Positions 12,357-64,000 are shown, counted from the first letter of the stretch. The stretch: 64,000 nucleotides of DNA from Dehalococcoidia bacterium UBA1152 (GCA_002311285.1 DBZU01000074.1:71222-135221), one strand, 5' to 3'. Numbers and translations: made by a program. Notes: a model not told the origin generated them from the letters alone.

Positions 12357-12428
12357 ACTAAACATAATCAAGTATTGCTCAGTTAATAATAGTACTTAAA
12401 TGAATTAAAGTTTGGGAGCTAGCTTAAA

Positions 12429-14367: not shown

Positions 14368-14395
14368 TTATTAATGTTAAATGGAGTTTATTCTT

Positions 14396-18023: not shown

Positions 18024-18033
18024 AACGTTAAAG

Positions 18034-18768
18034 CTACGGAGAATCAGTAATTTTCGGAACTTCTATTTCTACTGGCACATCGAATTTTGACATTGTTACC
18101 AATCTTATTGTGCCATCAATGTCCGTCATCTTTGCCTTGCCGATAAATTTTATTACGGTTAAATGGAACGTTTCCTTATTTATAGTAGCCTCGACTGCTA
18201 CCGTTCCGTCTTCGAGAGTCTCACCAAGCAGTTTGTCTAAAAGTATTGATTGAAGACTGCCGCTTATTTGATAATTCGGTGAATCTAATGAGGGATCTAC
18301 CATGAATTGTGGTTCAGTCATTTTTTCTAGTAGCGATGCCATTCCTTCATCGGTATTAAAAAATCCTCCCAAATTCACTGTGGGTTCGATTTGTTCCCAA
18401 ACTCCAGTCAATGGATTGGTAAGATAGTTGTCCTTTCCAATTGCTACCAACATAGACCGGACTGGAAAAGCACCAAACATTCCTATAAATTCAGCTCTAA
18501 GCAAATCAGGTGGCTGTACATCGCCAGATGTTTCCTCCACGTCCAGCCCCGGTAGGAATTCTGTAACGCCAACTTCATGTGTCATACTAAAATGGAAAGA
18601 TTTTAATGTTTCCATAACGTGGCCCGATTTACTGATAACCTCCGCTTCCGTAAGGACAACAGTCTCAGTTTCTGAAGTAGTTTTAGATGAGTCTGATTGT
18701 GAACATGCAAAAGTAAGAATTACTGCACAAATTATTAGAATAGATATAGATTTCATTTTTTTAGACAA
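18034..18768 (-). CDS. LppX/LprAFG-family lipoprotein (LprG-like)
   Basis: 244 aa with a signal peptide and lipobox (LTFAC). The length and the pattern of the mature domain resemble LprG-type lipid-binding lipoproteins. Confidence 0.65.
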   Translation of the reverse strand: MSKKMKSISILIICAVILTFACSQSDSSKTTSETETVVLTEAEVISKSGHVMETLKSFHFSMTHEVGVTEFLPGLDVEETSGDVQPPDLLRAEFIGMFGAFPVRSMLVAIGKDNYLTNPLTGVWEQIEPTVNLGGFFNTDEGMASLLEKMTEPQFMVDPSLDSPNYQISGSLQSILLDKLLGETLEDGTVAVEATINKETFHLTVIKFIGKAKMTDIDGTIRLVTMSKFDVPVEIEVPKITDSP

Positions 18769-42313: not shown

Positions 42314-43315
42314 ATGTCTAAAAAACAGTCCAATAACAAACCTGATGTTGGGGTAATCCCTGCCGACACACTCCTTGAAGTTTACAAAACTATGGTTCAG
42401 AGTAGATTTTTAGATGAAAGAGTATGGCAACTTAATCGTCAGGGTCGAGCAGCCTTGGTAGCTTCTTCTCAAGGGCATGAGGCTGTGCAAATTGCATCAG
42501 TTTTTGCGTTACAAAAAGGTAATGACCTTTTTTACACGTATTACCGTGATTTAGCCGTGATGGTTGCTTTAGGAGTTACTCCTCGCCAGATAATGCTTGG
42601 ATATATGGCAAAATCCGGAGAGCCAATGAGTGGGGCTCGCCAATTTCCTACCCAAGGTGCTATGCCTAATCTGGGATTGATTAATCTGTCAAACGTTGTA
42701 GCCACGCAGCTACCACAAGCGGTTGGAGCAGCTTTAGGATGCGTGCAAAAGAAATCAAACGCGGTTGTAGCCGTATATTTTGGCGATGGAGCTTCTTCTA
42801 CTGGCGATTGTCATGAAGCAATGAATTTTGCCTCAATTCATCAATTGCCAGTCATATTTATCTGTGAGAACAATGGTTATGCCATTTCCGTACCTTTATC
42901 TAAACAAATGGCTATTAAAAAAATCTCAGTTCGTGCTGCTAGCTACAATATGCCTGGAATTACAATTGACGGGACAGACGTAGGCGCAGTTTTTAAGAGC
43001 GTTTCTGAGGCTGCAGATCGTGCCAGATCAGGGAATGGACCTACATTGATTGAGGCAATGGTCGAACGTTATTTGCCGCATACTGGTGATGATGATGATA
43101 AAAGATATAGATCGAAAGAAGAACTGAAACAGGCCAGGAAAAAGGACCCAGTAGCAATCTTAAAAGTACTTTTAAAAACTAATAATATTTTGAATGAAGA
43201 GACTGACGCTGAAATTAATAAAATTGCAAAAGAAAAAATCGATGATGCAACAGAGTATGGGGAATCAGCTCCGTATCCAGACGCTGGCACATTTTATGAT
43301 CACGTGTACTCATAA
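42314..43315 (+). CDS. bkdA1: Branched-chain 2-oxoacid dehydrogenase E1 alpha subunit
   Basis: 333 aa with the TPP motif GDGASSTGD...NN and a YLPHTGDDDDKRYR loop typical of BCKDH-type E1 alpha. Confidence 0.82.
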   Translation: MSKKQSNNKPDVGVIPADTLLEVYKTMVQSRFLDERVWQLNRQGRAALVASSQGHEAVQIASVFALQKGNDLFYTYYRDLAVMVALGVTPRQIMLGYMAKSGEPMSGARQFPTQGAMPNLGLINLSNVVATQLPQAVGAALGCVQKKSNAVVAVYFGDGASSTGDCHEAMNFASIHQLPVIFICENNGYAISVPLSKQMAIKKISVRAASYNMPGITIDGTDVGAVFKSVSEAADRARSGNGPTLIEAMVERYLPHTGDDDDKRYRSKEELKQARKKDPVAILKVLLKTNNILNEETDAEINKIAKEKIDDATEYGESAPYPDAGTFYDHVYS

Positions 43316-43342
43316 TATTTATAAATTTTAGGTTTATTACTA

Positions 43343-44326
43343 ATGCAAGAAATAAATATAATTGAGGCGGTTCGTCAAGCTATGTATGAGGAAATGGATA
43401 GAGACGACACTGTCTTTATTTTAGGTGAAGATATAGGCGTCAGAGGTGGTGTATTTTTAGCGACTGATGGATTTCTTGAGTCCTTTGGAGCAGGCAGAGT
43501 GATAGATACGCCTATTTCCGAATCTGCTATTGCAGGAATAGCTTTGGGAGCTGCGATGCAAGGAATGAGACCAATTGTTGAGATTGAATTCGCAGATTTT
43601 ATGTGGCCCGTTTTCAATCAGATTTTAGGTGAGGCTGCAAGGATTAGGTACGGGACGGAAGGAAAATTACAAGCACCATTAGTTTTAAGAGCACCTTATG
43701 GAGGAGGTATTAGAGGAGGTTTATATCATTCCCAAAGCCCTGAGGCATATTTTGCCCATACCCCTGGCCTCAAAGTTGTGGCTCCGGCAACTCCATTTGA
43801 TGCAAAAGGTTTACTTAAGGCTGCAATTAGAGATAATGATCCAGTAATTTTCTTGGAACACAAAAAAACTTATAGGCTAGTTAAAGGTCAAGTTCCAACA
43901 GAAGAATACACGGTCCCAATTGGCAAAGCAGATGTAAAACTGGAAGGTGAAGACATTACAATAGTGACTTATGGATTAATGCTACATCATTGTGTTGAAG
44001 CTGCTAGAATTGTTAAAGAAAACAACATCAGTGTTGAGGTAATCGATTTACGTACTTTGCGTCCAATCGATCATAAAACTTTGGTTACCTCTGTAATGAA
44101 GACAGGTAAAGTTTTGATAGTTCATGAAGATACGCAGGCGTTAGGAATAGGGGCCGAAGTATCAGCGATTTTAGCAGAAGAAGTTTTCGATTATTTGGAC
44201 GCACCTATCAGAAGACTCGCTGGCCCAGAGGTGCCAGCGATGCCATTTAGTCCAACTTTAGAAGGCGAGTTTATGATTGTTTCTCAAGACATTGTAAATG
44301 CGTTAGCACATTTATCAGAGTATTAA
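43343..44326 (+). CDS. bkdA2: Branched-chain 2-oxoacid dehydrogenase E1 beta subunit
   Basis: 327 aa transketolase-like pyrimidine-binding and C-terminal domains (DTPISE, EFADF). Confidence 0.88.
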   Translation: MQEINIIEAVRQAMYEEMDRDDTVFILGEDIGVRGGVFLATDGFLESFGAGRVIDTPISESAIAGIALGAAMQGMRPIVEIEFADFMWPVFNQILGEAARIRYGTEGKLQAPLVLRAPYGGGIRGGLYHSQSPEAYFAHTPGLKVVAPATPFDAKGLLKAAIRDNDPVIFLEHKKTYRLVKGQVPTEEYTVPIGKADVKLEGEDITIVTYGLMLHHCVEAARIVKENNISVEVIDLRTLRPIDHKTLVTSVMKTGKVLIVHEDTQALGIGAEVSAILAEEVFDYLDAPIRRLAGPEVPAMPFSPTLEGEFMIVSQDIVNALAHLSEY

Positions 44327-44328
44327 TT

Positions 44329-45630
44329 ATGGAAATTGTTTTACCACAATTAGCTGAATCTATTACTGAGGCTATTATTGGGAAATGGCTGGCCGTTGAG
44401 GGTCAAGAAATAGATAAATATCAACCCTTAGTGGAAGTTATAACCGATAAGGTAAATGTTGAAATGCCTTCACCAGTTTCAGGCCGTTTAGTCAAAATCA
44501 TCGCAGCGGAAGGTGAAACAATCTTGGTCGGATCGGTTTTAGCTGACATTAAAACATCCGAAGAAGGAAAAGGTAAACTACAATCACCTCCCCCCAGTTC
44601 TAATTTAGATACCTTAGGGGGATTTATATCTGGCGCACCTCCAGTTGGGCCTACAGGCGCGGCCAATGTTCCTCAGAACGATGAATCTAAGAAATCGACT
44701 GTCGCACAAGATGCTTCTGAAAAGACTGCAAAATTAAAACTATCTCCTGCTGTTAAAAAACTTGTTGAAAAACATAATGTCGATGTAGGTGAGCTTTCCG
44801 GCACAGGAAAATTTGGTCGTGTAACCCGAAAGGATGTGCAGTTGTATTTACACTCTACTCAAGGCACTAATCTGGACGAAACTGATGATAATGACACTAA
44901 AATTCGCATGGATCCGATTCGCAAAATAACGGCTAAAAACATGTCCCTTAGTGCTGCTGAGATACCTGATGCATGGTTAACAATTGAAGCAGATATAACG
45001 GACTTAGTCTTGTTAAGACAATCTATCAAACAAAGCTTTTATAGTAGTAATAGTTTTCATATAACATACTTGGCATTTGCTGTTTATGCCGCCTGTAAGG
45101 CTATTCAAACACATCCTGTCATAAATGCCTCTTTTAAAAATGATGAAATCGTATTACATGCTGACTTAAATATAGGGATAGCGGTGGCTGGGCCATCTGG
45201 CCTTATTGTCCCGGTTATTAAAAATGTTGTAGACAAATCTATAACATCTATTGCACATGAGATTGATCGTTTGATTGACAAAGTAAATTCCGGAAAACTG
45301 ACTCATTCAGATGTTACGCATGGTACATTTACTGTGAACAACACCGGGGCACTAGGATCCAATTTATCTATCCCCATAATTGTGCCAGGGCAAGCTTCAA
45401 TTCTAACTACTGAATTGGTAACCAAGAAGCCAGTAGTAGTTCAAGCAGATGTTAACCGGGCTTCTACTCAAACAGTGCTTGACGGGGAACATGCCATCGA
45501 AATTAGATCAATGATGAATTTATGCTTAAGTTTTGATCATAGGATTATGGATGGAGTGGAGGCAGCAGGATTTTTGAATGATGTAAAACAAAATATGGAA
45601 TCGTTTTCTTCCGGCACGTCTCTCGTCTAA
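44329..45630 (+). CDS. bkdB: Lipoamide acyltransferase (E2) of the branched-chain 2-oxoacid dehydrogenase complex
   Basis: Lipoyl domain (VITDKVNVEMPSP), a subunit-binding domain (SPAVKKLV) and the catalytic FDHRIMDG motif. Confidence 0.88.
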   Translation: MEIVLPQLAESITEAIIGKWLAVEGQEIDKYQPLVEVITDKVNVEMPSPVSGRLVKIIAAEGETILVGSVLADIKTSEEGKGKLQSPPPSSNLDTLGGFISGAPPVGPTGAANVPQNDESKKSTVAQDASEKTAKLKLSPAVKKLVEKHNVDVGELSGTGKFGRVTRKDVQLYLHSTQGTNLDETDDNDTKIRMDPIRKITAKNMSLSAAEIPDAWLTIEADITDLVLLRQSIKQSFYSSNSFHITYLAFAVYAACKAIQTHPVINASFKNDEIVLHADLNIGIAVAGPSGLIVPVIKNVVDKSITSIAHEIDRLIDKVNSGKLTHSDVTHGTFTVNNTGALGSNLSIPIIVPGQASILTTELVTKKPVVVQADVNRASTQTVLDGEHAIEIRSMMNLCLSFDHRIMDGVEAAGFLNDVKQNMESFSSGTSLV

Positions 45631-45640
45631 TAATACAAAA

Positions 45641-46315
45641 ATGTCAAACAAGCATAAAGATATCAGGGCAATATGGTTAGGGCCATCTGATTTTATGGAA
45701 ACCTGGACTCTTCAAAAAAGATTAGCAGTGCAAATAACGGAAGGATTGGAACCAGAAACCTTATTGCTGTTAGAACATAATAACGTTTATACACTTGGTA
45801 GAAGAGGAACTACAGATGATATTTTATTGTCGTCAAAGAAACTTAGAGATATGGGAATAGAGGTGCATCATATAGATCGTGGTGGGCAAGTTACTTATCA
45901 CGGCCCCGGCCAATTGGTTGCATATACGATATTAAATGTAAAAAATATTGGAGGTCCATTAAGATTGATTTGTGCTTTGCAAGAAACTATGTTGGACGCA
46001 TTGTCAAAATTTGGAATTAGTGCCAATTGCGCAAATCGTCCGACAGGAGTTTGGGTAGAGGATTCAAAAATCGGTGCTATTGGACTACGTGTAAGTAAAG
46101 GCTACTCCACACACGGATTTGCTTTAAATGTTTCGCCTGATTTAAAACTATTTGATCACATTATCCCTTGTGGCATGACTGGCGCGAAAGTAACTTCCCT
46201 AGAAGAACTCTCAGTTGATGTAAGTGTAACAACATTTGCGAAAACAGTGGCTGATTCACTGGGCAAGTCATTGAAGCGAAATATATTCTGGGCTGAGCAA
46301 AGAAAACTTTATTAA
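45641..46315 (+). CDS. lipB: Octanoyltransferase
   Basis: 224 aa with the RGGQVTYHGPGQLV motif and the catalytic cysteine context IIPCG. Confidence 0.9.
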   Translation: MSNKHKDIRAIWLGPSDFMETWTLQKRLAVQITEGLEPETLLLLEHNNVYTLGRRGTTDDILLSSKKLRDMGIEVHHIDRGGQVTYHGPGQLVAYTILNVKNIGGPLRLICALQETMLDALSKFGISANCANRPTGVWVEDSKIGAIGLRVSKGYSTHGFALNVSPDLKLFDHIIPCGMTGAKVTSLEELSVDVSVTTFAKTVADSLGKSLKRNIFWAEQRKLY

Positions 46316-46333
46316 GATCGCTTATACACTATA

Positions 46334-49300
46334 ATGAAAGTTTGGAATATGCCCAACATTGTTAAACCAATAAACACCCTAAGTATCCTTAGTCTTATAC
46401 AAAATAGACTACTCAATGAGTGGAAGCTTATGTTGGCAATATTCGCCGGGGTATTAGTCGCAGCTATTTTGATATCAGGCGCCCCGATATATCTGAAATC
46501 ACTTGAGCGTATTAGTGTTAATGCTGCATTTGATCAAACTTCAAATGTGACATTGAATGCCCTTGTGTACACTCCGAATATAGTACTTTCACAAAATTCT
46601 CTGGAAGAATCTCAAAAAATAATTGATTTAGTAGTCAATGAACAAATCAGTGATGTTTATGTTGATGAACGACGCTTAATTAGAAGCCCAAATTATTTAG
46701 CCGGACTACCGTATAGAGCTTTAGAAACTCGAATGGTTTCACGTGGCTATGTTCAATATATGGAGAACATTGAACAGAATATTGTGTTTCTAGATGGACG
46801 TATGGCAACTAATAGTGTGATTGAAGGACCTCGTGGGCCAGTAATTGAGGTGATACTTGGGAAGCCATCATTAGATATATATGATTTAAACATTGGTGAC
46901 ATCGTTGAGCTTACAACCTTTATTGATAACGAGATACGTATATCTGCAAAAATTACCGGAATATTTGAACCGGTTGATTCAAAAGCAGCCTTTTGGAGAG
47001 AAAATTCGGCAACTTTTCTGAAACCAGCCCCGCTTGAAGAGTCAGTACAAAAAGGAGTTACTGTTGATCCAGACGAGCCTCCATTGCCATTTTTTTCTAC
47101 TCAAAAAACTTTGACACAAGGCATATCTAAAGCTTATCCAGGAACAATAGTGAGTTCTTCATGGCTTATATTTTTAGATCGTGAAAATTTAAAGCAGTAT
47201 GATGTCGCTGAGGCAAAATCACGGTTTGCTAATTTCCGTAAGGATATAGCTTTGTCATTACCAGGTTCTTTTGTATTGTCGATTGTGCCTAAAGTTTTAG
47301 AGACATATGAAAAAAGAAGCTTATATACAAGTATCCCCTTACTGTTGCTCCTTACTTTAATGGTAGTAACAGTTCTTTATTACATGTCAATGATGGTTTC
47401 ATACCTGGTAAAGAGTCGAGAGGAAGATGTTATTCGGCTTCGGACTAGAGGAATTAGCGTACTTAAACTTTTTCAAGTTTATGTAATTGAAATTTCAGTT
47501 TTAACCATTTTGGCTGTAGCGGTTGCTCCATTTATTTCGATGGGATTAATCGCGATTGCTGGTAAGTTGCCATATTTTAAGGCAATCACTTTTGGAGATT
47601 TAATCCCAGTAGACATGTCCTGGGAGCCTTTTGTAGCCGCAGCTGCTTTAGGCGTTTTATGCCTATTAATATATACAGTAGCAGGACTAATTGCTGCTCG
47701 TTCAGGCGTAATTTCTTATCGACTAAGATTATCTCGGCCACTGCTGTCTCCTTTCTTTCAAAAGTACTATATAGATATAGGGTTTTTGATTATTGGTGGA
47801 ATTGTTTTTTGGGAACTCCAAACAAGAGGGAGTTTTTTATCAGGCGATATGTCAAATAATGCACAGTTAAATGAGGGATTACTATTCGCACCTGTGCTTT
47901 TCTTGATAGGCGTTGCCTTGATATTTATGCGCTTATTTCCTTTAGTGGTTCGGTATGTTGCAGGAGAATCTGTGTCGTTAGTGAACCTGATTACAGTGTT
48001 TACTTTGATTATGATTGGCCCTGTATATGCCTTCCAGTCATTTATTGGTGAAAACAACTTTAATTGGATTGTGCAACTATTGATCGCTGGAGGATTGTTA
48101 GTCACCTATAGATGGATTGAGCCAAAATTACTAACAGGCCTCAACAAATCTGCATTGAGCCTATTTGTTGGTTTAATAATTCAAATCGGACTTATTTGTG
48201 TTTATTTTTATCTATCAGCATCGACATCGCATTTGTTGTTTAATACGGTCATTAGCTTACTGATATCTCTAGTTCCATTGCAGATACTATTTATAGTTTT
48301 GCGATACTTTTCCAATAGATGGCCTATATGGATATCTATGAGTTTATGGCATATGGCACGCAATCCGTTTCAATATAGTTGGCTTGTTTTATTACTTGTG
48401 CTCATAACAGGTATGGCCGTTTTGTCAACGACTGTTGGAGGCACATTGGACAGAAGTCAAGTTGAAAGAGTTTTGCACCAAACAGGTGCAGAGATTAGAG
48501 TTACCGGACTTCCCTCAGATAAAAGTAAAGGAATTGATGAGACTAAGAAATTTTATAGAAATATAGATGGAGTTTCTGAATTAGCATTAGCATTCAGAGG
48601 TGTTGCAACAATTGGCCTAACAGGCGCGGGTTATCAGTTTGATGTTTTGGGCATACAACCAGGTGAGTTTAATAAAATTGCTTGGTTTAGAGATGATTAT
48701 GCGGATACTACTCTGAATAATCTAATGACGGATCTACAGAATGAAGCCAATATTGAACAACTAATACTTCCAGTAGATGCTACGGAGATTGGCATTTATG
48801 TTAAACCTGCTGAGGTATACCCAAATATATTTGTATGGCTCGTGGTAGAAGATAATCGAGGCATAGTACGTACTGTGAGTTTAGGCAGGACGGCCGAGGC
48901 GCAATGGCAGTCACTCAAAGCTACTATCCCTGATAGTTTAATTGGCCCGATAAAATTATTGTCAGTGCAGATATATGAACCCGTTTTAGGCCCTAATGGT
49001 TCTATTGGATCGATGCAATTTGATGACATTTTTGTGACAACAGATTCGACTGTCGACTCACGTGACAAAGGCAATAAAATAGTCGTGGAAGATTTTGAAG
49101 ACAAATTGAGTTGGAGGACTCTAGTCTCCTCACCTCTAGCTACTCACCAGCTGTCCACTACTAATTTAGATGCTAATTCGGGACAACGCAGCGCACAATT
49201 TGATTTTGGAAAGGATACTTCTGAAGGAATCAGAGGGTTTTATTTCGCTCCTTCTGGAGGACTGGTTCCAGTCATCATAAATGAGTCATTATCTTTGTCT

Positions 49301-50056
49301 ACGGGAATTGAGGTTTCAGATAATGTTTTAGTGAGTATAAATGGGCAGGTTATCCCTATCACAGTTACAAAAATTATTAATAATTTTCCTACTTTGCGTT
49401 CGGATCGTGGGTTTATCGTTTCTGACCTAGACCTGCTACTTAGGACTCTTAAACTGAAAGGGGTTAATGTGTATCACAGCCCCAATGAGTTATTTATCTT
49501 GACTGATGATGGATCTAATGAACTTGTGGTGGACATGATTTACGATGAGCTTGGGAGAGCAGCTCCAGTTCGAGTGTATGATAGAGATACAAGCTTAGCC
49601 TCTGCTGCGTTAGATCCTTTAGTGGCTGGCGGCTGGAAAGCTATGGTAATTATATCTGTGGCCGTAGTGATTTTTACGGGAGCATTAGGATACTCAGCTC
49701 ATTTGCTGTCTTTTTCTGAAAGAACCAGCGTTCAGATGGCAACGCTTAGCACTCTAGGCTTATCAAGACTGCAAGTAGTCGGACTTTTGTACTTAGAAAA
49801 CGCAGTTATTTTTGTTATGGGAATTGGTTTGGGTACATGGGCAGGATTTCAAATGAGTGAACTAATGGTCGATTCAGTAGCAGTCACCGAAACCGGTTTT
49901 AAAGTGATGCCAGTATTTCAAGTTATTACAAATTGGCAAATAATGTGGCCTGTTTATGGGATTTTATGTGCCATTTTCTTTGTTGCTGTCGGGTTTATGT
50001 ATAGAACAGTGATAAAGGTGGATTTGGCAGCAATTTCTAGAAGGTCAATCAATTAA
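46334..50056 (+). CDS. Giant FtsX-domain ABC permease P1 (two FtsX modules, two large extracytoplasmic domains, about 14 TM)
   Basis: 1240 aa. Order: TM1 (aa 32-53), extracytoplasmic domain (ECD) of about 280 aa, a 3-TM FtsX module, additional TMs, a second ECD of about 395 aa (aa 705-1100), and a C-terminal 3-TM FtsX module. Shares FQKYY[IL]D, MARNP and GGTLDRS motifs with the next gene. Confidence 0.85.
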   Translation: MKVWNMPNIVKPINTLSILSLIQNRLLNEWKLMLAIFAGVLVAAILISGAPIYLKSLERISVNAAFDQTSNVTLNALVYTPNIVLSQNSLEESQKIIDLVVNEQISDVYVDERRLIRSPNYLAGLPYRALETRMVSRGYVQYMENIEQNIVFLDGRMATNSVIEGPRGPVIEVILGKPSLDIYDLNIGDIVELTTFIDNEIRISAKITGIFEPVDSKAAFWRENSATFLKPAPLEESVQKGVTVDPDEPPLPFFSTQKTLTQGISKAYPGTIVSSSWLIFLDRENLKQYDVAEAKSRFANFRKDIALSLPGSFVLSIVPKVLETYEKRSLYTSIPLLLLLTLMVVTVLYYMSMMVSYLVKSREEDVIRLRTRGISVLKLFQVYVIEISVLTILAVAVAPFISMGLIAIAGKLPYFKAITFGDLIPVDMSWEPFVAAAALGVLCLLIYTVAGLIAARSGVISYRLRLSRPLLSPFFQKYYIDIGFLIIGGIVFWELQTRGSFLSGDMSNNAQLNEGLLFAPVLFLIGVALIFMRLFPLVVRYVAGESVSLVNLITVFTLIMIGPVYAFQSFIGENNFNWIVQLLIAGGLLVTYRWIEPKLLTGLNKSALSLFVGLIIQIGLICVYFYLSASTSHLLFNTVISLLISLVPLQILFIVLRYFSNRWPIWISMSLWHMARNPFQYSWLVLLLVLITGMAVLSTTVGGTLDRSQVERVLHQTGAEIRVTGLPSDKSKGIDETKKFYRNIDGVSELALAFRGVATIGLTGAGYQFDVLGIQPGEFNKIAWFRDDYADTTLNNLMTDLQNEANIEQLILPVDATEIGIYVKPAEVYPNIFVWLVVEDNRGIVRTVSLGRTAEAQWQSLKATIPDSLIGPIKLLSVQIYEPVLGPNGSIGSMQFDDIFVTTDSTVDSRDKGNKIVVEDFEDKLSWRTLVSSPLATHQLSTTNLDANSGQRSAQFDFGKDTSEGIRGFYFAPSGGLVPVIINESLSLSTGIEVSDNVLVSINGQVIPITVTKIINNFPTLRSDRGFIVSDLDLLLRTLKLKGVNVYHSPNELFILTDDGSNELVVDMIYDELGRAAPVRVYDRDTSLASAALDPLVAGGWKAMVIISVAVVIFTGALGYSAHLLSFSERTSVQMATLSTLGLSRLQVVGLLYLENAVIFVMGIGLGTWAGFQMSELMVDSVAVTETGFKVMPVFQVITNWQIMWPVYGILCAIFFVAVGFMYRTVIKVDLAAISRRSIN

Positions 50057-50085
50057 ATATGAGCTTAGTTATATAAAAAATTAAA

Positions 50086-53000
50086 TTGTTATCAGATTTT
50101 ATTACTACATTTAGATTTGTGCTTAAACGAAGCATGTCTCATTCGCGTTTACTATTATCGGTTGTCATAGGAGTTTTGTTAGCTTCAGCAATATTGTCTG
50201 GAACTGTAATCTATTTTAACTCGCTTAAAGAGATAGCTCTTGATGAAACACTGGATACCCTTTCTTCTAATGATTTAGATCTGGTTATCAAGACAGTTAG
50301 AGGCCCTACTACGATTCAAGAATATAAAACAGTATCAGATGTGATACGTGAGGGAGTTGTAGATAATATTGGTTGGTTTACTAAAAGTTCGATTTCTGGT
50401 GCGGCGTCAGCTACATTCTTTCTAACTGAGCCGGGTAAAGAAGACCAAGCAGGAAATGACAACGCCAGAGCGTATTTTTCATTTTCACCTGATTTAAATA
50501 AATATGCTGCAATTGTAGATGGCGGACGAATTCCAGATAACGCTGCGATTAAAACAGAACAAAACACCCCACTAGTTATCGAGGCACTCATTTTTGAGGA
50601 AGCAGCATGGGAATCTAATATCAAAATAGGAGACACCTTATCGGTTGTCCCTTTTTGGAGTGACAAGATAGATAAAGCACATGTAATTGTTACTGGCGTG
50701 CTTAGAAAGCTTGACCCGACAGACAATTTTTGGCATCTAGACGAATTAGTTTTCGGTGCTAATACTGGTCCATCATTTAGGACAGTACCATTTTTTGTAT
50801 CCGAACAAGCGTATTTTGACATACTGGGCAGATCGTTTGCCGATATGGATACTACTTATGGTTGGATGTTCGCAGTGGACAAGGAACAGATCAGTGCTGA
50901 CAGGGCAAAAGACGGCGTCGCAAGCATCCAATTGATGGGATACACTTTATCAAGTCAACTATATAGTTATCGTCAATTCACATCATTGGAACAAACACTG
51001 AGTGATTATGACAAACGTCTGTTTTTTTCAAAACTCCCTATGTTTATGTTATTAGTTTTAGTTGCTGTTGTGGTTTTATATTACGTAGTTACTTTATCCG
51101 GGCTTTTGATAGAGCGCCAACGAGGCGAAATTGCATTACTGAGAAGTCGTGGGGCTGGATCTTGGCATCTTATAGCAATCTTTGCGATAGAAGGCTTGAC
51201 GATTTCCGGATTATCGATTGTTTTAGGACCATTGTTGGCTGCTGGAGCAATAAAACTTGCTGGGTCAACTCCCATATTTGCCGAGTTGCTTGGAGGCACC
51301 GGCTTAGAAGTTAAATTATCTGGAACTGCTTATGCCTTGGCTGCTGTAGGCGGTATATTTTCATTTTGCGCTTTAATGATTCCAGCGATTCAAGCTTCTA
51401 GGATGTCGGTTACTGGATATCGTAGAGATAGTGCTCGCCCTACTGGCCTGCCTTTGTTCCAGAAGTACTATCTAGATGTGCTTTTATTAATTGTATTTGT
51501 AGTTCTATTTAGACAATTGTCTGAACAAGGCTCGTTTGTTGCTACACAAACACTTGGCCAGACAACAGCAAATTACTTGTTGTTAGCGGTCCCTGCGGTT
51601 ACGTTATTAGGGTTTGCGTTGGTTCTATTACGTTTATTCCCTTTAGCGTTAAATCTAGCCAGCCGGCTATTATCCCGGTGGTTGCCTGTCGGGCCAACTT
51701 TAGCTTTGTGGCAAATGGCTCGTAACCCTGCTTACTATGCCAGGCTGTCATTGCTATTAATTCTTACAGCGGGATTAGGGATTTTTGCAGCTAGTTTCGG
51801 CGGTACTCTAGATCGAAGTTTTCGTGAAAGAGTTTTATATTTCGCTGGAAGCGAAATAAGGATAGAAGGAATAACTACAGATTCAAGTGGACTTACTAAA
51901 CCAATACAATTGAGTTATGAAAACATTGAAGGCATCAGTGCAGCCTCAGCTGTATATAGAGGACGGGCATACGACTATACTGATCTGACGTCAAATAGAA
52001 TTGAACTTTTAGCTATTAATAATGATACGTTTCAAGATGTAGGATGGTTTAGAGAGGACTTTTTTGAAACGAATCAATCTGACTTATTAATGTCATTAAA
52101 GTCTAATCAGACCAATCAAGGTATTTCCATACCCGAAGAAGCTCGCACCTTAGCTATCTTAGCTCAAGCAGACCGCCCACACCCTACTGTTCGTTTGGCT
52201 GCACGTGTGGTTGATGCTAATGGTCGGTATTTCACATATGAAATGGGAAACCTTGAAACATTCAATTTACAACTTTATGAGGTTTCTTTGACTAGGACTA
52301 CTCGATCTACATCCAGATTTACTAGAGGACAGCAATTAGAGCCGACCGCTCCTTTAAAATTAATTTCCATTGCCATAGAAGAAACCGACACTTTGGGGAA
52401 CACTTTTCCAGGTGCAATAACGATAGACCAGATAAGTTATCGGACTTCAGATGGCAGAAGAATTGTAATTAATGAATTAGATGATATAAATATGTGGAAC
52501 CCTTTGCGTATGACTCCAGATTCAATTGGGGACTTCACTAATGAATCTCATTTAGATTTAGGTGGTACGGATAATCACGCGATTAAATTTAATTGGTCAT
52601 CTGGACCTTCGTTAGTTCCAAGAGGTATTTATTATGGCAGTGAAATGTCATTTATCCCTGTACTTGGTAGTAATGAGTTTTTATCTTCATCAGGTCACGA
52701 AGTGGGTGACATATTTTATATTTATGTGGCGAGTAAGAGAGTTCCAGTTAAATTAATGGACACGTTCTCTTATTTCCCCACTTTAGACACCAACACTAAA
52801 ACCCACTTGGTAGCCGATATTGAAACCTTAATCGCTTTTGCCAATTTGGATACTTCTCAAAGAGAGATAAAGCCAAATGAAATGTGGCTTAGTCTGGATG
52901 TAGATAGCCAGGATAGAGAAGAGCTGATCCGAACCCTTAAAACAGAACCTTTTGGCGCAACTACTGTTCTTGATAGAGATGCATTATTAAAAGAAAGTAG

Positions 53001-53448
53001 CGTGGACCCACTAACAAAAGCTGGTTGGAGAGCTCTATTATTCATTGCATTTGGGGCTGTATTTATTTTAAGTTGCGTAGGGTTTGTGGTTCATGCGCAT
53101 GTGTCATTTAGTGGCCGTAAGGTGCAATTCGCTTTACTTCGTACTGTTGGATTAACGCAAACGCAGATAGCAACTGTGGTTCTTTTAGAGCAAGCGCTTG
53201 TCATTGGAACAGGGATGGTGTTGGGTTCCTGGATGGGAAGAAATTTAGGAGCTATAATAATGCCGTTTTTAGCCAATGATGATGTCGGCACGCAGGTTTT
53301 ACCTCCGTTTGTTACTGAGATAAGCTGGGTTGCATTAATTGGAACGTATGCTGCTATGATAGCAGTATTTACTGTTATAGCCTTTTCGATGATTTGGTTT
53401 GTCCGTCGCATATCTGTGGTAACAACGTTAAGGATAGGAGAAAATTAG
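50086..53448 (+). CDS. Giant FtsX-domain ABC permease P2 (BceB/YbbP-like 10-TM topology, two large extracytoplasmic domains)
   Basis: 1120 aa paralog of P1 with a TTG start. It has the same domain order but lacks P1's extra 4-TM block. Confidence 0.85.
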   Translation: MLSDFITTFRFVLKRSMSHSRLLLSVVIGVLLASAILSGTVIYFNSLKEIALDETLDTLSSNDLDLVIKTVRGPTTIQEYKTVSDVIREGVVDNIGWFTKSSISGAASATFFLTEPGKEDQAGNDNARAYFSFSPDLNKYAAIVDGGRIPDNAAIKTEQNTPLVIEALIFEEAAWESNIKIGDTLSVVPFWSDKIDKAHVIVTGVLRKLDPTDNFWHLDELVFGANTGPSFRTVPFFVSEQAYFDILGRSFADMDTTYGWMFAVDKEQISADRAKDGVASIQLMGYTLSSQLYSYRQFTSLEQTLSDYDKRLFFSKLPMFMLLVLVAVVVLYYVVTLSGLLIERQRGEIALLRSRGAGSWHLIAIFAIEGLTISGLSIVLGPLLAAGAIKLAGSTPIFAELLGGTGLEVKLSGTAYALAAVGGIFSFCALMIPAIQASRMSVTGYRRDSARPTGLPLFQKYYLDVLLLIVFVVLFRQLSEQGSFVATQTLGQTTANYLLLAVPAVTLLGFALVLLRLFPLALNLASRLLSRWLPVGPTLALWQMARNPAYYARLSLLLILTAGLGIFAASFGGTLDRSFRERVLYFAGSEIRIEGITTDSSGLTKPIQLSYENIEGISAASAVYRGRAYDYTDLTSNRIELLAINNDTFQDVGWFREDFFETNQSDLLMSLKSNQTNQGISIPEEARTLAILAQADRPHPTVRLAARVVDANGRYFTYEMGNLETFNLQLYEVSLTRTTRSTSRFTRGQQLEPTAPLKLISIAIEETDTLGNTFPGAITIDQISYRTSDGRRIVINELDDINMWNPLRMTPDSIGDFTNESHLDLGGTDNHAIKFNWSSGPSLVPRGIYYGSEMSFIPVLGSNEFLSSSGHEVGDIFYIYVASKRVPVKLMDTFSYFPTLDTNTKTHLVADIETLIAFANLDTSQREIKPNEMWLSLDVDSQDREELIRTLKTEPFGATTVLDRDALLKESSVDPLTKAGWRALLFIAFGAVFILSCVGFVVHAHVSFSGRKVQFALLRTVGLTQTQIATVVLLEQALVIGTGMVLGSWMGRNLGAIIMPFLANDDVGTQVLPPFVTEISWVALIGTYAAMIAVFTVIAFSMIWFVRRISVVTTLRIGEN

Positions 53449-53452
53449 TTCT

Positions 53453-54355
53453 GTGGAACATACAAAAACTCTAGCACATATATCATGTGAAGATGTATTC
53501 AAAATATATAAAGTCGCTGATCTTGAAGTAGTCGCATTACGGGGATTGGACCTTGAAGTTGAACGTGGAGAAATAGTAGCAATTGTTGGCGCAAGCGGTT
53601 CCGGAAAATCTACATTATTAAATATCTTGGCTGGTTATGATCTTCCATCTGCAGGAAAAGTATCTGTATTAGGAAGGGACCTTCTTAGTATGAATTCAGC
53701 TGAAGTAGAGAAATATAGACGTACTGAAGTTGGTTTTATCTGGCAGCAAACTGGGCGCAATATGTTTCCATATTTAACTGCTATAGAGAATGTTGAATTA
53801 CCAATGATGTTAATTGGTGAAGTTTCTGCCAAACGACGTCAAAGAGCAGAAGAATTACTTGAATTAGTAGGTTTATCAGATCGAATGAGTCATGCACAAG
53901 ACAAACTTTCCGGTGGTGAACAACAACGTGTGGCAATTGCTATATCGCTTGCTAATAACCCGCCATTGCTTTTGGCGGATGAACCCACGGGTGAACTTGA
54001 TGATGCTACCGCAAACGAAGTGATGCAAGTTTTTGAGTCAGTAAATAAAGAATTAAGGACTACGATATTGATTGTGAGCCATGATCAAGATATTGCATAC
54101 AAAGTAGACAGAGTGGTATTGATAAGGGATGGAAAGCTTTCTACAGAAATAATACGCTATAAATCAGATAAACAAGAATCTCAAACAGAAACGGCTGGCG
54201 ATAGTACTGAATTGGAAGAATTTGTGTTAGTTGATGGGAGTGGAAGAGTACAAGTTCCTAAACCATTACTGGATCACCTTAAAATTGGAAGAAGGGCAAA
54301 AATAAGAATTGATAATAATGGAGTTATTCTAGAACCCGGAGATGCAGATAAATGA
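53453..54355 (+). CDS. MacB/LolD-type ABC ATPase A1 with C-terminal AbrB/SpoVT-like extension
   Basis: Walker A GASGSGKST, signature LSGGEQQR and Walker B LLLADEPTGELD. An extra roughly 65 aa tail contains GRVQVPKPLLDHLKIGRRAKIRIDNNGVILEP. GTG start 4 nt after the P2 stop. Confidence 0.9.
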   Translation: MEHTKTLAHISCEDVFKIYKVADLEVVALRGLDLEVERGEIVAIVGASGSGKSTLLNILAGYDLPSAGKVSVLGRDLLSMNSAEVEKYRRTEVGFIWQQTGRNMFPYLTAIENVELPMMLIGEVSAKRRQRAEELLELVGLSDRMSHAQDKLSGGEQQRVAIAISLANNPPLLLADEPTGELDDATANEVMQVFESVNKELRTTILIVSHDQDIAYKVDRVVLIRDGKLSTEIIRYKSDKQESQTETAGDSTELEEFVLVDGSGRVQVPKPLLDHLKIGRRAKIRIDNNGVILEPGDADK

Positions 54356-55065
54356 ATTCTGAGAGACCTATTATTGAGATTGAAAAGGCTGCAAGATCTT
54401 TCCAGATGGCCGGAAAGAGCGTTTCTGTTCTTAAATCAATTGATTTGAATGTTAAACATGGCGAATTTGTTGCCTTGATCGGCAGGTCAGGCTCGGGCAA
54501 AACTACGTTACTGAATCTCATTTCAGGCCTGGATGCGCCTAGTGAAGGGAAAATTTTGTTTGAGAGCCAAAATCTGGCTGACATGAATGAAGGGCGTCTT
54601 ACCGAACTTCGCAGGAGTAAACTGGGATTCGTTTTTCAGAGTTTTGGACTACTGCCATTGTTATCAGCTTTTGAAAATGTTGAATTACCGTTACGAATAT
54701 CTGGGGTCCGGGCTGGGGAAAGGGAAAGGTTAACTCGTAGGGCTTTGGATATTGTTGGTCTTGAAGGGCGATCAAAGCACAGGCCTTATGAACTTTCAGG
54801 CGGAGAGCAGCAGAGAGTAGCAATTGCTCGGGCAATAGTTCACGATCCAGTGTTAATTTTGGCTGACGAACCCACGGGCGAATTAGATTCAGTTAATGCT
54901 CGGGCAATTTTTGGGATATTTAAAGAAATGGTCCAAGATAAAACTATGTCAGTTGTAGCTGCAACACATGATTCAAATTTACTAGAAATGGCTGACCGAG
55001 TATTAAAATTGTCGGAAGGGCAACTAGAAGAAGATGCTAGTTATGGGCAACGTTTTCGGGAATAA
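54352..55065 (+). CDS. MacB/LolD-type ABC ATPase A2
   Basis: 237 aa with Walker A GRSGSGKTT, signature LSGGEQQR and Walker B LILADEPTGELD. ATGA overlap with A1. Confidence 0.9.
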   Translation: MNSERPIIEIEKAARSFQMAGKSVSVLKSIDLNVKHGEFVALIGRSGSGKTTLLNLISGLDAPSEGKILFESQNLADMNEGRLTELRRSKLGFVFQSFGLLPLLSAFENVELPLRISGVRAGERERLTRRALDIVGLEGRSKHRPYELSGGEQQRVAIARAIVHDPVLILADEPTGELDSVNARAIFGIFKEMVQDKTMSVVAATHDSNLLEMADRVLKLSEGQLEEDASYGQRFRE

Positions 55066-62396: not shown

Positions 62397-64000
62397 TTAT
62401 TCTTCTGATACAAAGTGCTTAATAACATTATTAGTTATTTTTGACACATCATTATTATAATCATTATGTGATAAAGATCCGCACCAAGATATTGATCCTG
62501 TCGAAAAAACCGCTCCATTGTTAGGGCCTTCGAAATAAACCATGTCACCTCTAACGAGTGGATTTACTGTACCACCTTGTAAGCCATCATTTAGTAACAC
62601 TTCTTCGATTACATGTTGGTATACATCTGAAAATCCATCAGTAGTGGCCAATACTAGAGCATGAGGAGGAGTCCCAAGTTCAACGTCAGCCCTGTCGATT
62701 TCAAAACCGCCAGCGCCGCCTTGCACTAATCCATAATCTCCAAATTCGTCCCCTTCATCAACCCCATCCATTATAAAAGAAACCCTAGGGTCTTTGCTTT
62801 CATCTGACTTACGATACGGGTTTGAAACATCGAAACCTTGTGAGGTAAACCCGACGCCTACTAACTGCTGAGGCGGTCGACCTCTAAATCTCCATAGGCC
62901 GCCTAGTTCACCAGTGCTTTGATGATAATATTCACCGGGAGCCGCTTCCCATGCCTCTGTGCCTCTATGCCGCCTTACTTCTATAGAATGAGTAGAACCT
63001 TCAGCATATGATGTGACCCAATAATATCCATTGCCACCCAAGTACATATGCCTACCTCCATTCACAAGATATTCTTCTAAATAATCCAACATTTCCCCTG
63101 TCCAGTATTCCGGATGAGATCCGCTTAACACCACTTGGTATCTGTTTAACAGGTCTGCTCCTTCTAAATGCAAGTCTTCATCCGTAGCAACATCAAACTC
63201 ATGGCCCATTGTTTCTAGCCAATCAACCAGGTGTAAGTCTGCATTGAATTGGTGTGCAGCCCCTTGCATATTGCTTAATAACGGGAAAACATATTTTGGC
63301 CTCATATTAAGAATAGGCCTAAGTCTTGAGGAGTGAGCAACTCCACTACCATCTGTGTGGCGATCATAGAGGCTGCGCAGTTTATTTTTGACCATATATC
63401 GGTCTGAGTCATTAGTTGGGTAATCCCAAGTTATTTCTGTATCTCCACCAAACAGTTTTGCATAATCTATACCCGGAGTATTCCAATGAAAATTTGCGTA
63501 TGCCAGGTAGCTATTAGTAGGCACTAAAAATAAAATTGGTGCTGTAGATGTTTGTTTTGGAGGTCGGACGAAAAATGGCACATAATCTTCGGAGTCTTTT
63601 GATTTAAGACGCGCCGCGTAGACTCCGCTACGCAAATTTTCTGGAACTTTAAGCGTAAACCCTATTTGCCAATTAGCATCATCTAGGTGGTCGTCATGAA
63701 AATGAATTGCGCTATATAATTCGGGGGCAATTTTGTAATTTTGTTCTTGACCACGCCAAAGATGTCCTGTCATTGCTCTATACGGCCGATTTACTACTTG
63801 TCCGTTATGCCCATTACCAGAAATATCGTCTACATACGCATTCGAAAAATTGGTGGTAAATGTCCATGCCGCTACCAAATTTCCATCACCTAGTTCACCA
63901 GCTGGGGCCTCGTTTTTTAATCGATATATTTCACCTTTTGTGAGAGCGCAGCTATAAATTTTTGGCGCATCTATTTTCCCGTTGTATTTAGCATCGATCA
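62397..64000 (-). CDS. N,N-dimethylformamidase large-subunit-like protein (5' end outside window)
   Basis: The frame stays open upstream of the track's TTG at 63878, all the way to the window edge (..KIYSCALTKGEIYRLKNEAPAGELGDGN..). HPEYWTGEM...LGGNGYYW and GGFEIDRAD segments resemble the DMFase beta-subunit family, recalled from memory. Confidence 0.6.
   Translation of the reverse strand, partial: IDAKYNGKIDAPKIYSCALTKGEIYRLKNEAPAGELGDGNLVAAWTFTTNFSNAYVDDISGNGHNGQVVNRPYRAMTGHLWRGQEQNYKIAPELYSAIHFHDDHLDDANWQIGFTLKVPENLRSGVYAARLKSKDSEDYVPFFVRPPKQTSTAPILFLVPTNSYLAYANFHWNTPGIDYAKLFGGDTEITWDYPTNDSDRYMVKNKLRSLYDRHTDGSGVAHSSRLRPILNMRPKYVFPLLSNMQGAAHQFNADLHLVDWLETMGHEFDVATDEDLHLEGADLLNRYQVVLSGSHPEYWTGEMLDYLEEYLVNGGRHMYLGGNGYYWVTSYAEGSTHSIEVRRHRGTEAWEAAPGEYYHQSTGELGGLWRFRGRPPQQLVGVGFTSQGFDVSNPYRKSDESKDPRVSFIMDGVDEGDEFGDYGLVQGGAGGFEIDRADVELGTPPHALVLATTDGFSDVYQHVIEEVLLNDGLQGGTVNPLVRGDMVYFEGPNNGAVFSTGSISWCGSLSHNDYNNDVSKITNNVIKHFVSEE

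What the first reader, a model, noticed from the sequence alone, without database searches (positions are those of the whole stretch)
46334..55065. Four-gene ABC module: two paralogous giant double-FtsX permeases plus two different ATPases
Four co-directional genes are packed with gaps of 29, 4 and -4 nt. P1 (1240 aa) and P2 (1120 aa) are paralogs sharing the motifs FQKYY[IL]D, W[HQ]MARNP and GGTLDRS..ERVL. Each combines two 3-TM FtsX modules with two very large extracytoplasmic domains (ECDs) of about 270-280 aa and 395-410 aa. The second ECDs contain long beta-strand-rich inserts that read like added beta-sandwich or carbohydrate-binding-type modules rather than a minimal MacB Porter/Sabre domain. 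Examples are IGIYVKPAEVYPNIFVWLVVEDNRGIVRTVSLG in P1 and RLAARVVDANGRYFTYEMGNLETF in P2. The topology recalls BceB/YbbP/Rv0987-type type VII ABC transporters. Several usual partners are missing from the window: no BceRS-like two-component system, no membrane-fusion protein and no outer-membrane factor. In addition, the module carries two permeases and two distinct ATPases (A1, A2). The substrate and stoichiometry cannot be read from the sequence. This is the best candidate here for an undescribed envelope machine in a monoderm, possibly for extraction or export of a surface polymer, lipid or peptide.
Basis: partly seen in the sequence, partly recalled or inferred. Interest (0 to 1): 0.8.

Follow-up and report, generated by a model that had tools for sequence, protein, structure and literature searches.

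The report
Twin giant ABC envelope machine, SAR202
Four adjacent genes of a marine SAR202 (Chloroflexota) bacterium encode an uncharacterised, lineage-specific variant of the MacB/FtsX-type "mechanical" ABC machines, with two giant paired membrane proteins and two different ATPases, which most likely uses ATP inside the cell to do work on the outer face of a wall-less envelope.

Summary
In detail: coordinates, gaps (29, 4, -4 nt), lengths, paralogy and motifs are all as stated. An AlphaFold model of P2 (pLDDT 82) matches E. coli YbbP best over its full length (Foldseek E 2e-17), then BceB, LolC/E and MacB. It has 10 TM helices and two Porter/Sabre-type extracytoplasmic domains (ECDs). ECD2 of both paralogs carries a 175-185 aa all-beta insert. 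The insert has no significant structural match, but it is a remote, apparently permuted relative of the spirochaete flagellar-sheath FlaA jelly-roll, which contacts glycans. P1 has about four extra hydrophobic segments (probably 14 TM). A1 carries a conserved AbrB-like C-terminal domain (hhalign 93%). Both ATPases keep all catalytic motifs.

The P1-P2 pair is conserved in about 70 of 80 Dehalococcoidia/SAR202 loci, and A1-A2 follows it in 45. Some genomes have extra P1-P2 pairs without ATPases. In Anaerolineales, A1 and A2 are fused into one polypeptide next to two large FtsX permeases, which points to an A1:A2 heterodimer.

No two-component system, membrane-fusion protein, outer-membrane factor or conserved partner gene was found. 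This is a new variant of type VII ABC systems. The substrate is unknown; an envelope lipid or glycan, or an S-layer component, is inferred.

The parts
46334..50056 (+). P1: 1240-aa fused double-FtsX permease, the paralog with extra TM segments
   Evidence: ORF; Pfam FtsX x2; orthologues of 1215-1250 aa lie immediately upstream of P2 in 65 loci
46484..47320 (+). P1 ECD1 (aa ~51-329)
   Evidence: Hydropathy; aligns to P2 ECD1
47960..48313 (+). P1-specific extra hydrophobic segments (aa ~543-660, 2-4 TM) between linker TM6 and TM7
   Evidence: Hydropathy; conserved in P1 orthologues; also present in long P2-type orthologues such as P0042
48440..49618 (+). P1 ECD2 (aa ~703-1095)
   Evidence: Hydropathy; 28% identical to P2 ECD2
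48737..49261 (+). P1 FlaA-like beta-sandwich insert (aa 802-976)
   Evidence: Aligned with the P2 insert and homologues in A4; profile hits FlaA
50086..53448 (+). P2: 1120-aa fused double-FtsX permease, 10 TM, YbbP-like
   Evidence: AF2 pLDDT 81.7; Foldseek YbbP E 1.9e-17 over the full length
50212..51039 (+). P2 ECD1 (aa 43-318), Porter/Sabre-type
   Evidence: AF2 secondary structure, pLDDT ~90; Foldseek to YbbP and to the LolE periplasmic domain 5udf
51802..53034 (+). P2 ECD2 (aa 573-983), Porter/Sabre plus insert
   Evidence: AF2
52099..52653 (+). P2 FlaA-like jelly-roll insert (aa 672-856)
   Evidence: Stand-alone AF2 model, pLDDT 89.8, pTM 0.85, all-beta; no Foldseek hit at E<=1e-3; profile vs PDB finds FlaA at E 4e-5; Pfam FlaA in 5 of 33 members
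53453..54355 (+). A1: LolD/MacB-class ABC ATPase with a C-terminal extension
   Evidence: Pfam ABC_tran 1.4e-33; NCBIfam LolD 1.8e-68, below cut-off; canonical motifs in 44-45 of 45 orthologues
54209..54337 (+). A1 AbrB/SpoVT-like swapped-hairpin tail (aa 253-295)
   Evidence: Conserved in all A1 orthologues; profile vs PDB puts AbrB, MraZ and SpoVT on top; hhalign 93% to the AbrB N-domain
54352..55065 (+). A2: second LolD/MacB-class ABC ATPase, start overlapping the A1 stop by 4 nt, with a conserved C-terminal R[FY]R[DS] motif

Best explanation
This is a Chloroflexota-specific type VII (MacB/FtsX-superfamily) ABC system that works by mechanotransmission rather than by moving a solute through the membrane. 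P1 and P2 are each a fused pseudo-dimer of two 4-TM FtsX units joined by linker helices, as in E. coli YbbP. Each has two Porter/Sabre extracytoplasmic domains. Each permease most likely docks one A1:A2 heterodimer on its two non-equivalent coupling helices (TM2-3 and TM8-9). ATP binding and hydrolysis at two consensus sites then close and open the helix bundle and move the ECDs outside the cell. The work done there is most probably extraction or handling of a membrane-anchored or surface-attached envelope component, such as a lipid, a lipid-linked glycan or an S-layer glycoprotein. The FlaA-like jelly-roll on ECD2 would act as the contact or recognition module. P1 and P2 act as an obligate pair, and extra P1-P2 pairs in some genomes borrow the same ATPases.

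Shown here: the gene set, fold class, topology, insert, AbrB-like tail, conservation and the fusion. Inferred: stoichiometry, direction of work and substrate.
For: Fold and topology: the AF2 model of P2 has pLDDT 81.7 and 10 TM helices. The best PDB matches are YbbP 9ge6_A/9ge7_A (E 1.9e-17 and 2.3e-15, about 1130 aligned columns), followed by BceB, LolC/E, MacB, YtrF and HrtB. YbbAP is described as a 10-TM, two-ECD mechanotransmission system with a 2:1 ATPase:permease ratio (PMC12646458).

ATPases: both are LolD/MacB/FtsE class, with canonical Walker A/B, signature and H-loop motifs in 44-45 of 45 orthologues.

Pairing of A1 with A2: they are always adjacent, with gaps of -8 to about +100 nt in 44 of 45 loci. 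They are fused in the order A1-tail-linker-A2 in at least five Anaerolineales/Chloroflexota proteins, where the N half is closest to A1 (51-55%) and the C half to A2 (45-46%). These fusions lie next to two large FtsX permeases.

Pairing of P1 with P2: they are adjacent in 65 of 80 loci. 28 loci have no A1-A2 within 10 kb downstream, and 24 of them are P1-P2 pairs. Some of these loci are second loci in genomes with more than one, for example L020 versus L078.

Insert: an all-beta domain related to FlaA. FlaA2 is a jelly-roll that contacts flagellin O-glycans.

Host envelope: cultured SAR202 are monoderm, lack peptidoglycan synthesis genes and show an S-layer-like coat. No partner genes were found.
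Against: There is no experimental or expression data. The substrate inference rests on a remote homology (FlaA E 4e-5, covering only part of the insert) and on the envelope type of cultured relatives from another SAR202 group.

All characterised type VII systems use homodimeric ATPases. The fusion does not strictly exclude A1:A1 plus A2:A2 dimers formed between two fused chains.

A single-copy AbrB-like domain normally needs a second copy to fold, and a simple one-permease, one-heterodimer model does not explain this.

The P1 topology (14 TM) is from hydropathy only. Neighbouring genes are catabolic (acyl-CoA dehydrogenase, CoA transferase, enoyl-CoA hydratase), which could equally point to handling of hydrophobic substrates.
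Confidence: 0.6

Rival explanations
1. There are two independent transporters that are merely co-transcribed. One permease is powered by an A1 homodimer, with the AbrB-like tails dimerising beneath the NBDs as the C-terminal domains of MalK and MetN do. The other permease is powered by an A2 homodimer.
For: All solved type VII systems have homodimeric NBDs (YbbA2, BceA2, LolD2). An AbrB-like domain is an obligate dimer by established knowledge, and A1 has one copy. The counts match: two permeases and two ATPases.
Against: A1 and A2 are fused into one chain in Anaerolineales next to two permeases. A1 and A2 never occur separately in the 80 loci, and nor do P1 and P2 apart from a few contig-end cases. 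Extra P1-P2 pairs lack both ATPases rather than one.
Confidence: 0.2
2. This is a YbbAP-TesA-like extractor of hydrophobic or lipid-like compounds from the outer leaflet. It would serve detoxification, or feed the large catabolic repertoire of SAR202, with no role in building the envelope.
For: YbbP is the closest structure, and its proposed role is extraction of hydrophobic molecules. Recurrent neighbours are acyl-CoA dehydrogenase, CoA-transferase, enoyl-CoA hydratase and SDR genes. P1-P2 pairs are expanded in some genomes, like the catabolic paralogs of SAR202.
Against: No TesA-like or other secreted hydrolase is conserved next to the module. SAR202 genomes are so rich in such catabolic genes that adjacency is weak evidence. 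The FlaA-like insert points to a glycan or protein contact rather than a lipid pocket.
Confidence: 0.2
3. This is a BceAB-like antimicrobial-peptide sensing and resistance module.
For: It has the 10-TM fused topology with a large ECD between TM7 and TM8. BceB is the second-best structural class.
Against: No BceRS-type two-component system is in the window or in the 80 related loci. ECD1 is large, unlike BceB. The host class lacks peptidoglycan synthesis, and so lacks the lipid II cycle that Bce systems protect. The broad vertical conservation looks like a housekeeping gene set.
Confidence: 0.05
4. This is a LolCDE-like lipoprotein release system, as the JGI automatic annotation says.
For: JGI names the family 'ABC-type lipoprotein release transport system permease'. 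LolD and LolC are the best NCBIfam and PDB sequence hits.
Against: All these hits are far below the family cut-offs (LolC 26.7 bits vs 473; LolD 230 vs 308) and cover only the TM or NBD parts. The architecture is fused and duplicated rather than a 4-TM heterodimer. The host is a monoderm without an outer membrane or LolA/LolB.
Confidence: 0.07

Closest known systems
E. coli YbbAP(-TesA), a type VII ABC transporter (PDB 9GE6/9GE7/9GE8; PMC12646458)
   Same: One polypeptide made of two 4-TM FtsX units joined by two linker helices (10 TM). There are two large Porter/Sabre ECDs, between TM1-2 and TM7-8. The LolD-class ATPases are encoded separately. It is the best full-length structural match.
   Different: Identity in the structural alignment is only 11-12%, and no sequence-level hit was found. 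P1 and P2 are 320-440 aa longer. ECD2 carries a FlaA-like jelly-roll, and P1 has extra TM segments. There are two paralogous permeases in tandem and two different ATPases, one with an AbrB-like tail, instead of a YbbA homodimer. No TesA-like partner is present. The host is a monoderm Chloroflexota bacterium.
BceAB(-S) of Firmicutes
   Same: A 10-TM fused permease with a large ECD between TM7 and TM8, and a 2:1 ATPase:permease ratio. It is the second-best structural class.
   Different: BceB lacks the first ECD and works with the BceRS two-component system. Neither feature applies here.
LolCDE
   Same: Two paralogous FtsX-type permease subunits act together with LolD-class ATPases. It extracts a membrane-anchored substrate by mechanotransmission.
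   Different: LolC and LolE are single 4-TM units forming one heterodimer. Here each paralog is already a fused pseudo-dimer. There is no LolA/LolB and no outer membrane.
Spirochaete flagellar sheath protein FlaA (Pfam PF04620), for the ECD2 insert only
   Same: A jelly-roll/beta-sandwich. The insert profile hits only FlaA proteins in the PDB (E 4e-5), and Pfam FlaA is the only recurrent family. Foldseek lists FlaA1 9cyn_C with probability 0.96.
   Different: The homology is remote and partial. The two matching segments are in permuted order. Here the domain is an insert in a transporter ECD, not a secreted sheath subunit.
Heterodimeric or tandem-fused ABC ATPases of importers (EcfA/EcfA', OppD/OppF, RbsA), as a functional analogy from general knowledge
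   Same: Two paralogous, fully canonical NBDs are encoded by adjacent, translationally coupled genes, or are fused.
   Different: They belong to other ABC transporter types. Neither heterodimeric nor tandem-fused NBDs appear among the arrangements listed for the MacB/FtsX superfamily in the 2018 review.

Membership tests
Type VII ABC (MacB/FtsX superfamily) | FtsX-type unit: an N-terminal TM helix, a large extracytoplasmic domain, then a 3-TM FtsX domain | tested here: met
   Pfam FtsX twice in each of P1 and P2; hydropathy; AF2 model; Foldseek to MacB, LolC/E, YbbP and BceB with probability 1.0
Type VII ABC (MacB/FtsX superfamily) | Porter plus Sabre fold of the extracytoplasmic domain | tested here: met
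   The full-length alignment to YbbP includes both ECDs. The isolated LolE periplasmic domain 5udf is hit at E 6e-3, probability 1.0. Pfam MacB_PCD is not detected at sequence level, so this is met by structure only.
Type VII ABC (MacB/FtsX superfamily) | LolD/MacB/FtsE-class nucleotide-binding subunits | tested here: met
   The top NCBIfam hits of A1 and A2 are LolD, YbbA, MacB and FtsE (E 1e-54 to 1e-68), all below the equivalog cut-offs
Type VII ABC (MacB/FtsX superfamily) | Mechanotransmission: ATP-driven movement of the ECDs without transmembrane substrate passage | not testable with these tools
   Needs structures in two nucleotide states, or biochemistry
YbbP-type fused permease | 10 TM helices arranged 4+2+4, with two large ECDs | tested here: met
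   Met for P2. P1 deviates, with 2-4 extra hydrophobic segments and probably 14 TM.
YbbP-type fused permease | Sequence-level family membership | tested here: not met
   phmmer against PDB sequences does not retrieve YbbP. The NCBIfam hits of P1 and P2 are only far-below-cut-off partial matches: a cation/H+ antiporter subunit model for P1, and ADOP and LolC/E models for P2. Identity in the Foldseek alignment is 11-12%.
YbbP-type fused permease | A single ATPase gene forming a homodimer (YbbA2) | tested here: not met
   Two distinct ATPases at 40% identity are always co-encoded, and are fused in Anaerolineales
YbbP-type fused permease | A neighbouring periplasmic partner hydrolase (TesA) | tested here: not met
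   No conserved secreted partner among the neighbours of 80 loci, and none in the window
BceAB-type module | A single large ECD (TM7-8) and an adjacent BceRS two-component system | tested here: not met
   There are two large ECDs and no histidine kinase or response regulator
LolCDE | Equivalog-level similarity to LolC/LolE/LolD, 4-TM subunits, and a diderm host with LolA/LolB | tested here: not met
   LolC scores 26.7 bits against a cut-off of 473, and LolD 230 against 308. The architecture is fused. The host class is monoderm.
FlaA (PF04620) domain, for the insert only | Match to the family model above the gathering score | tested here: inconclusive
   Single members reach only E 0.0018, and only 5 of 33 do so. 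The family profile against PDB FlaA chains gives E 4e-5 in two segments in permuted order. Foldseek lists FlaA1 with probability 0.96 but E 0.07.
AbrB/SpoVT swapped-hairpin domain, for the A1 tail only | Sequence-profile similarity to the AbrB N-domain, including the VDxxGRVxIP motif | tested here: met
   hhalign probability 93%, E 3e-7. AbrB, MraZ and SpoVT top the PDB profile search at E 0.02-0.4. Pfam MraZ and MazE hits are below threshold. The fold itself was not modelled.

The most novel reading that the evidence does not exclude
P1 and P2 form one supercomplex, P1.P2.(A1.A2)2, with 24 TM helices, four ECDs and four NBDs. The single-copy AbrB-like tails of the two A1 subunits would pair into one swapped-hairpin barrel, coupling the two engines mechanically or allosterically. 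The FlaA-like jelly-rolls would grip the glycosylated S-layer. The machine would then be the S-layer-envelope counterpart of FtsEX or Lol, inserting, remodelling or tethering the surface coat of wall-less monoderm Chloroflexota. This would be a new organisational class within ABC systems.
Probability: 0.12. Interest if true: 0.8.

Novelty: new variant of a known kind. Interest (0 to 1): 0.6.

Why it matters
SAR202 and Dehalococcoidia are among the most abundant bacteria of the dark ocean. They have a poorly understood envelope that lacks peptidoglycan and carries an S-layer-like coat. The known roles of type VII ABC machines are outer-membrane lipoprotein sorting, TolC-dependent efflux, control of peptidoglycan hydrolases and protection of the lipid II cycle. 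None of these fits such a cell.

A conserved, self-contained and sometimes multi-copy module therefore points to an unrecognised envelope function. It also adds arrangements that do not appear among those listed for the MacB/FtsX superfamily in the 2018 review:
- paired fused permeases;
- heterodimeric or tandem-fused ATPases;
- an AbrB-like domain on an ATPase;
- a jelly-roll insert in an ECD;
- a probable 14-TM form.

Cultured SAR202 strains now exist, so the module can be tested directly.

Tried and rejected
- Pfam and NCBIfam on whole proteins and on the excised ECDs gave no domain hit in any ECD, only FtsX in the TM parts.
- A sequence search of the PDB with P1 and P2 found only the LolC/LolF TM region.
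- Foldseek of the isolated insert gave nothing at E<=1e-3. The weak PLAT/LH2, C2 and fucose-lectin similarities were treated as generic beta-sandwich resemblance, so no CBM family is claimed.
- Clustering of neighbours across 80 loci to find a partner gene, as TesA is for YbbAP, found only shadow ORFs and catabolic genes.
- The promoter and terminator scan found no more sites than in shuffled sequence, so it was uninformative.
- Coupling-helix sequences were compared by eye. CH1 resembles CH1 and CH2 resembles CH2 between the paralogs, which paralogy alone predicts, so this cannot separate homo- from heterodimeric ATPases.
- Literature searches for the module, for FtsX proteins in Chloroflexi and for AbrB-like domains on ABC ATPases found no description.
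- A full P1-P2 fusion was looked for among the long variants (1336-1553 aa). These are tandem duplications within ECD1, not fusions.

Full report
OBSERVATION

All lie on the + strand, with gaps of 29, 4 and -4 nt. P1 and P2 align over their whole length, at 28% over 604 aa (E 1e-65) and 23% over 532 aa. A1 and A2 are 40% identical. The quoted motifs and peptides are present. Pfam finds two FtsX stretches in each permease and ABC_tran in each ATPase. NCBIfam places both ATPases in the LolD/YbbA/MacB/FtsE class, but below every equivalog cut-off. None of the four ECDs has a Pfam hit.

ORGANISM AND CONSERVATION

A scan of one genome per GTDB species found 281 stretches encoding relatives. The 80 best all come from Dehalococcoidia, SAR202 or Chloroflexota MAGs, and the nearest are SAR202 group II genomes at 75-76% identity. 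I called ORFs in these loci and assigned them by BLAST. The results were:
- P1 lies directly upstream of P2 in 65 loci, and nearby in 9 more.
- A1-A2 follows within 400 nt in 42 loci, and within 10 kb in 45.
- A1 and A2 are never found apart.
- 28 loci have no A1-A2 within 10 kb downstream of P2; 24 of them are P1-P2 pairs.

Several genomes contribute more than one locus. For example, L020 has all four genes while L078 from the same MAG has only the pair. So the module is co-conserved, and the permease pair can be amplified without its own ATPases.

Clustering all flanking ORFs found no conserved partner. The recurrent neighbours are SDR, acyl-CoA dehydrogenase, CoA-transferase and enoyl-CoA hydratase genes. 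In the window the module sits between a 2-oxoacid dehydrogenase/LipB cluster and aminotransferase and amidohydrolase genes. A Pfam scan of all 54 ORFs of at least 150 aa found no histidine kinase, response regulator, membrane-fusion protein or outer-membrane factor.

STRUCTURE OF THE PERMEASES

An AlphaFold2 model of P2, built on 52 sequences, has mean pLDDT 81.7 and pTM 0.65, with about 90 in the ECDs. It shows:
- ten TM helices arranged 4+2+4;
- ECD1 at aa 43-318;
- ECD2 at aa 573-983.

Foldseek against the PDB ranks E. coli YbbP first (9ge6_A E 1.9e-17; 9ge7_A E 2.3e-15; about 1130 aligned columns; 11-12% identity). BceB, LolC/E, MacB, YtrF and HrtB follow. YbbAP was characterised in 2025 as a 10-TM type VII transporter with two ECDs and a YbbA2:YbbP1 stoichiometry. 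It shows mechanotransmission-type conformational changes and is proposed to extract hydrophobic molecules for the periplasmic esterase TesA (PMC12646458).

Hydropathy gives P1 the same plan, plus extra hydrophobic segments at aa ~543-660. These are conserved in P1 orthologues and also occur in long P2-type orthologues. An even number of extra helices is needed to keep the topology, so four are most likely, giving 14 TM. This is a prediction only.

THE ECD2 INSERT

In the model, aa 672-856 of P2 form an all-beta block inserted between the N-terminal half of the Porter subdomain and the Sabre subdomain. The subdomain assignment is my reading of the secondary-structure order, made by comparison with ECD1. 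Modelled alone, the block is confident (pLDDT 89.8, pTM 0.85).

It has no PDB match at E<=1e-3. The best weak matches are PLAT/LH2 and C2 beta-sandwiches, and FlaA1 appears at rank 28 with probability 0.96.

A profile of the insert was built from both paralog families (alignment A4). Searched against PDB sequences, it returns only spirochaete FlaA sheath proteins, the best at E 4.2e-5 and 5.5e-5. Pfam FlaA is the only family hit repeatedly by single members, in 5 of 33 with best E 0.0018. The match falls in two segments whose order is swapped relative to FlaA, which suggests a circular permutation. FlaA2 is a jelly-roll whose concave face contacts O-glycans of the flagellin core (bioRxiv 10.1101/2022.03.03.482903).

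An exhaustive profile search of 1.84 billion representative proteins found only 444 proteins with this domain. Those listed are 1080-1250-aa proteins with the domain at the same position, or are gene fragments or longer variants. The named ones are from SAR202 or Dehalococcoidia. As to glycan binding it is only suggestive.

THE ATPASES

Both ATPases keep canonical Walker A, Walker B-Glu, signature and H-loop motifs in 44-45 of 45 orthologues. There are thus two consensus ATP sites and no degenerate one.

A1 carries a C-terminal segment conserved in every orthologue, with consensus LEEFxLVDxSGRVQIPRxxLDxLKIxERARVxxEDGxVTLxP. Its profile puts AbrB, MraZ and SpoVT on top of a PDB search at E 0.02-0.4. 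It aligns to the AbrB N-domain with 93% hhalign probability. A2 ends in a conserved R[FY]R[DS] motif.

The search with A1 also found at least five proteins of 470-523 aa from Anaerolineales or Chloroflexota MAGs that are A1-tail-linker-A2 fusions. Their N halves are closest to A1 (51-55%) and their C halves to A2 (45-46%, versus 38-39% to A1). In two contigs they follow two large FtsX permeases. One of these spans the insert region, and the other (906 or 920 aa) lacks it.

This Rosetta-stone fusion, the invariable A1-A2 adjacency and the joint absence of both ATPases from the extra P1-P2 pairs all argue the same way. A1 and A2 work together in a 1:1 ratio, most simply as a heterodimer on the two non-equivalent coupling helices of each fused permease.

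MECHANISM AND FUNCTION

Membership in the type VII class is well supported, and mechanotransmission follows from that membership by established knowledge of the class. What the ECDs act on is not shown.

Cultured SAR202 are monoderm, lack peptidoglycan synthesis genes and carry an S-layer-like coat (PMC10444878). This makes Lol-, MacAB-TolC-, FtsEX- and Bce-type roles unlikely. My preferred reading is extraction or handling of a membrane-anchored or surface-attached envelope component, with the FlaA-like jelly-roll as the contact module.

The main rival for substrate is YbbAP-like extraction of hydrophobic compounds. This fits the catabolic neighbours, but no hydrolase partner is present. The main rival for stoichiometry is two separate homodimer-driven transporters. 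A single-copy AbrB-like tail normally needs a partner copy. This leaves open a P1.P2.(A1.A2)2 supercomplex bridged by the A1 tails.

NOVELTY

The 2018 review of the superfamily lists homodimeric, heterodimeric and fused permeases with one or two ECDs. It notes that a fused permease always has its NBD encoded as a separate protein (PMC5985334). Several features of this module do not appear among those arrangements:
- paired fused permeases;
- two different or tandem-fused ATPases;
- an AbrB-like domain on an ATPase;
- a jelly-roll insert;
- a probable 14-TM form.

I found no paper on this family. Databases name its members only 'FtsX-like permease family protein', 'ABC transporter permease' or 'hypothetical protein'. 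I rate it a new variant of a known kind, with interest 0.6.

Noticed in passing
window 16503-18768, - strand: An LppX/LprAFG-family lipoprotein (18034-18768, Pfam E 3e-10) lies next to an MFS transporter (16503-18023). The arrangement resembles the mycobacterial LprG-Rv1410c lipid-transport pair (from my own knowledge), here in a SAR202 genome. The adjacent 381-aa ORF at 19023-20168 (-) has no Pfam hit.
   Followed up: no
loci L030, L034, L037, L039, L040, L050, L053, L064, L072, L078 and others: 28 of 80 related loci have no A1-A2 within 10 kb downstream of P2, and 24 of them are P1-P2 pairs. Several genomes contribute more than one locus, for example L020 (full module) versus L078 (pair only). 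This implies amplified permease pairs that share ATPases encoded elsewhere.
   Followed up: partly
L081 5862-7433; L082 4768-6179; proteins P0446, P0464, P0467, P0492, P0495: In Anaerolineales/Chloroflexota MAGs, A1 (with its AbrB-like tail) and A2 are fused into one tandem-NBD polypeptide of about 520 aa, downstream of two large FtsX permeases. The second permease lacks the FlaA-like insert.
   Followed up: yes
proteins P0316 (1553 aa), P0290, P0273, P0305, P0310, P0355, P0386: Longer family members (1336-1553 aa) carry two or three tandem copies of the first ~250 residues of ECD1, so the size of ECD1 is modular in this family.
   Followed up: partly
A2 orthologues in L023, L029, L031, L036, L042-L044, L051, L080: One subclade of A2 has a 60-70 aa acidic, low-complexity extension inserted before the conserved terminal RFRR motif.
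   Followed up: no
window 52099-52653 and 48737-49261, compared with PDB FlaA chains: The two segments of the insert that match FlaA are in swapped order (profile 114-144 with FlaA 44-74; profile 13-87 with FlaA 128-201). This suggests a circular permutation of the jelly-roll.
   Followed up: partly
window 10965-15643 and 42314-46315: There are two separate 2-oxoacid dehydrogenase gene clusters. The first encodes E3, E1 alpha, E1 beta and E2. The second encodes E1 alpha, E1 beta, E2 and a LipB-like lipoyl transferase, and ends 18 nt before the P1 start. This linkage to the ABC module holds only in the closest SAR202 relatives.
   Followed up: partly
window 62397-63878, - strand: A 493-aa protein matches the C-terminal domain of the N,N-dimethylformamidase beta-subunit-like family (DMFA2_C, E 1e-95).
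   Followed up: no
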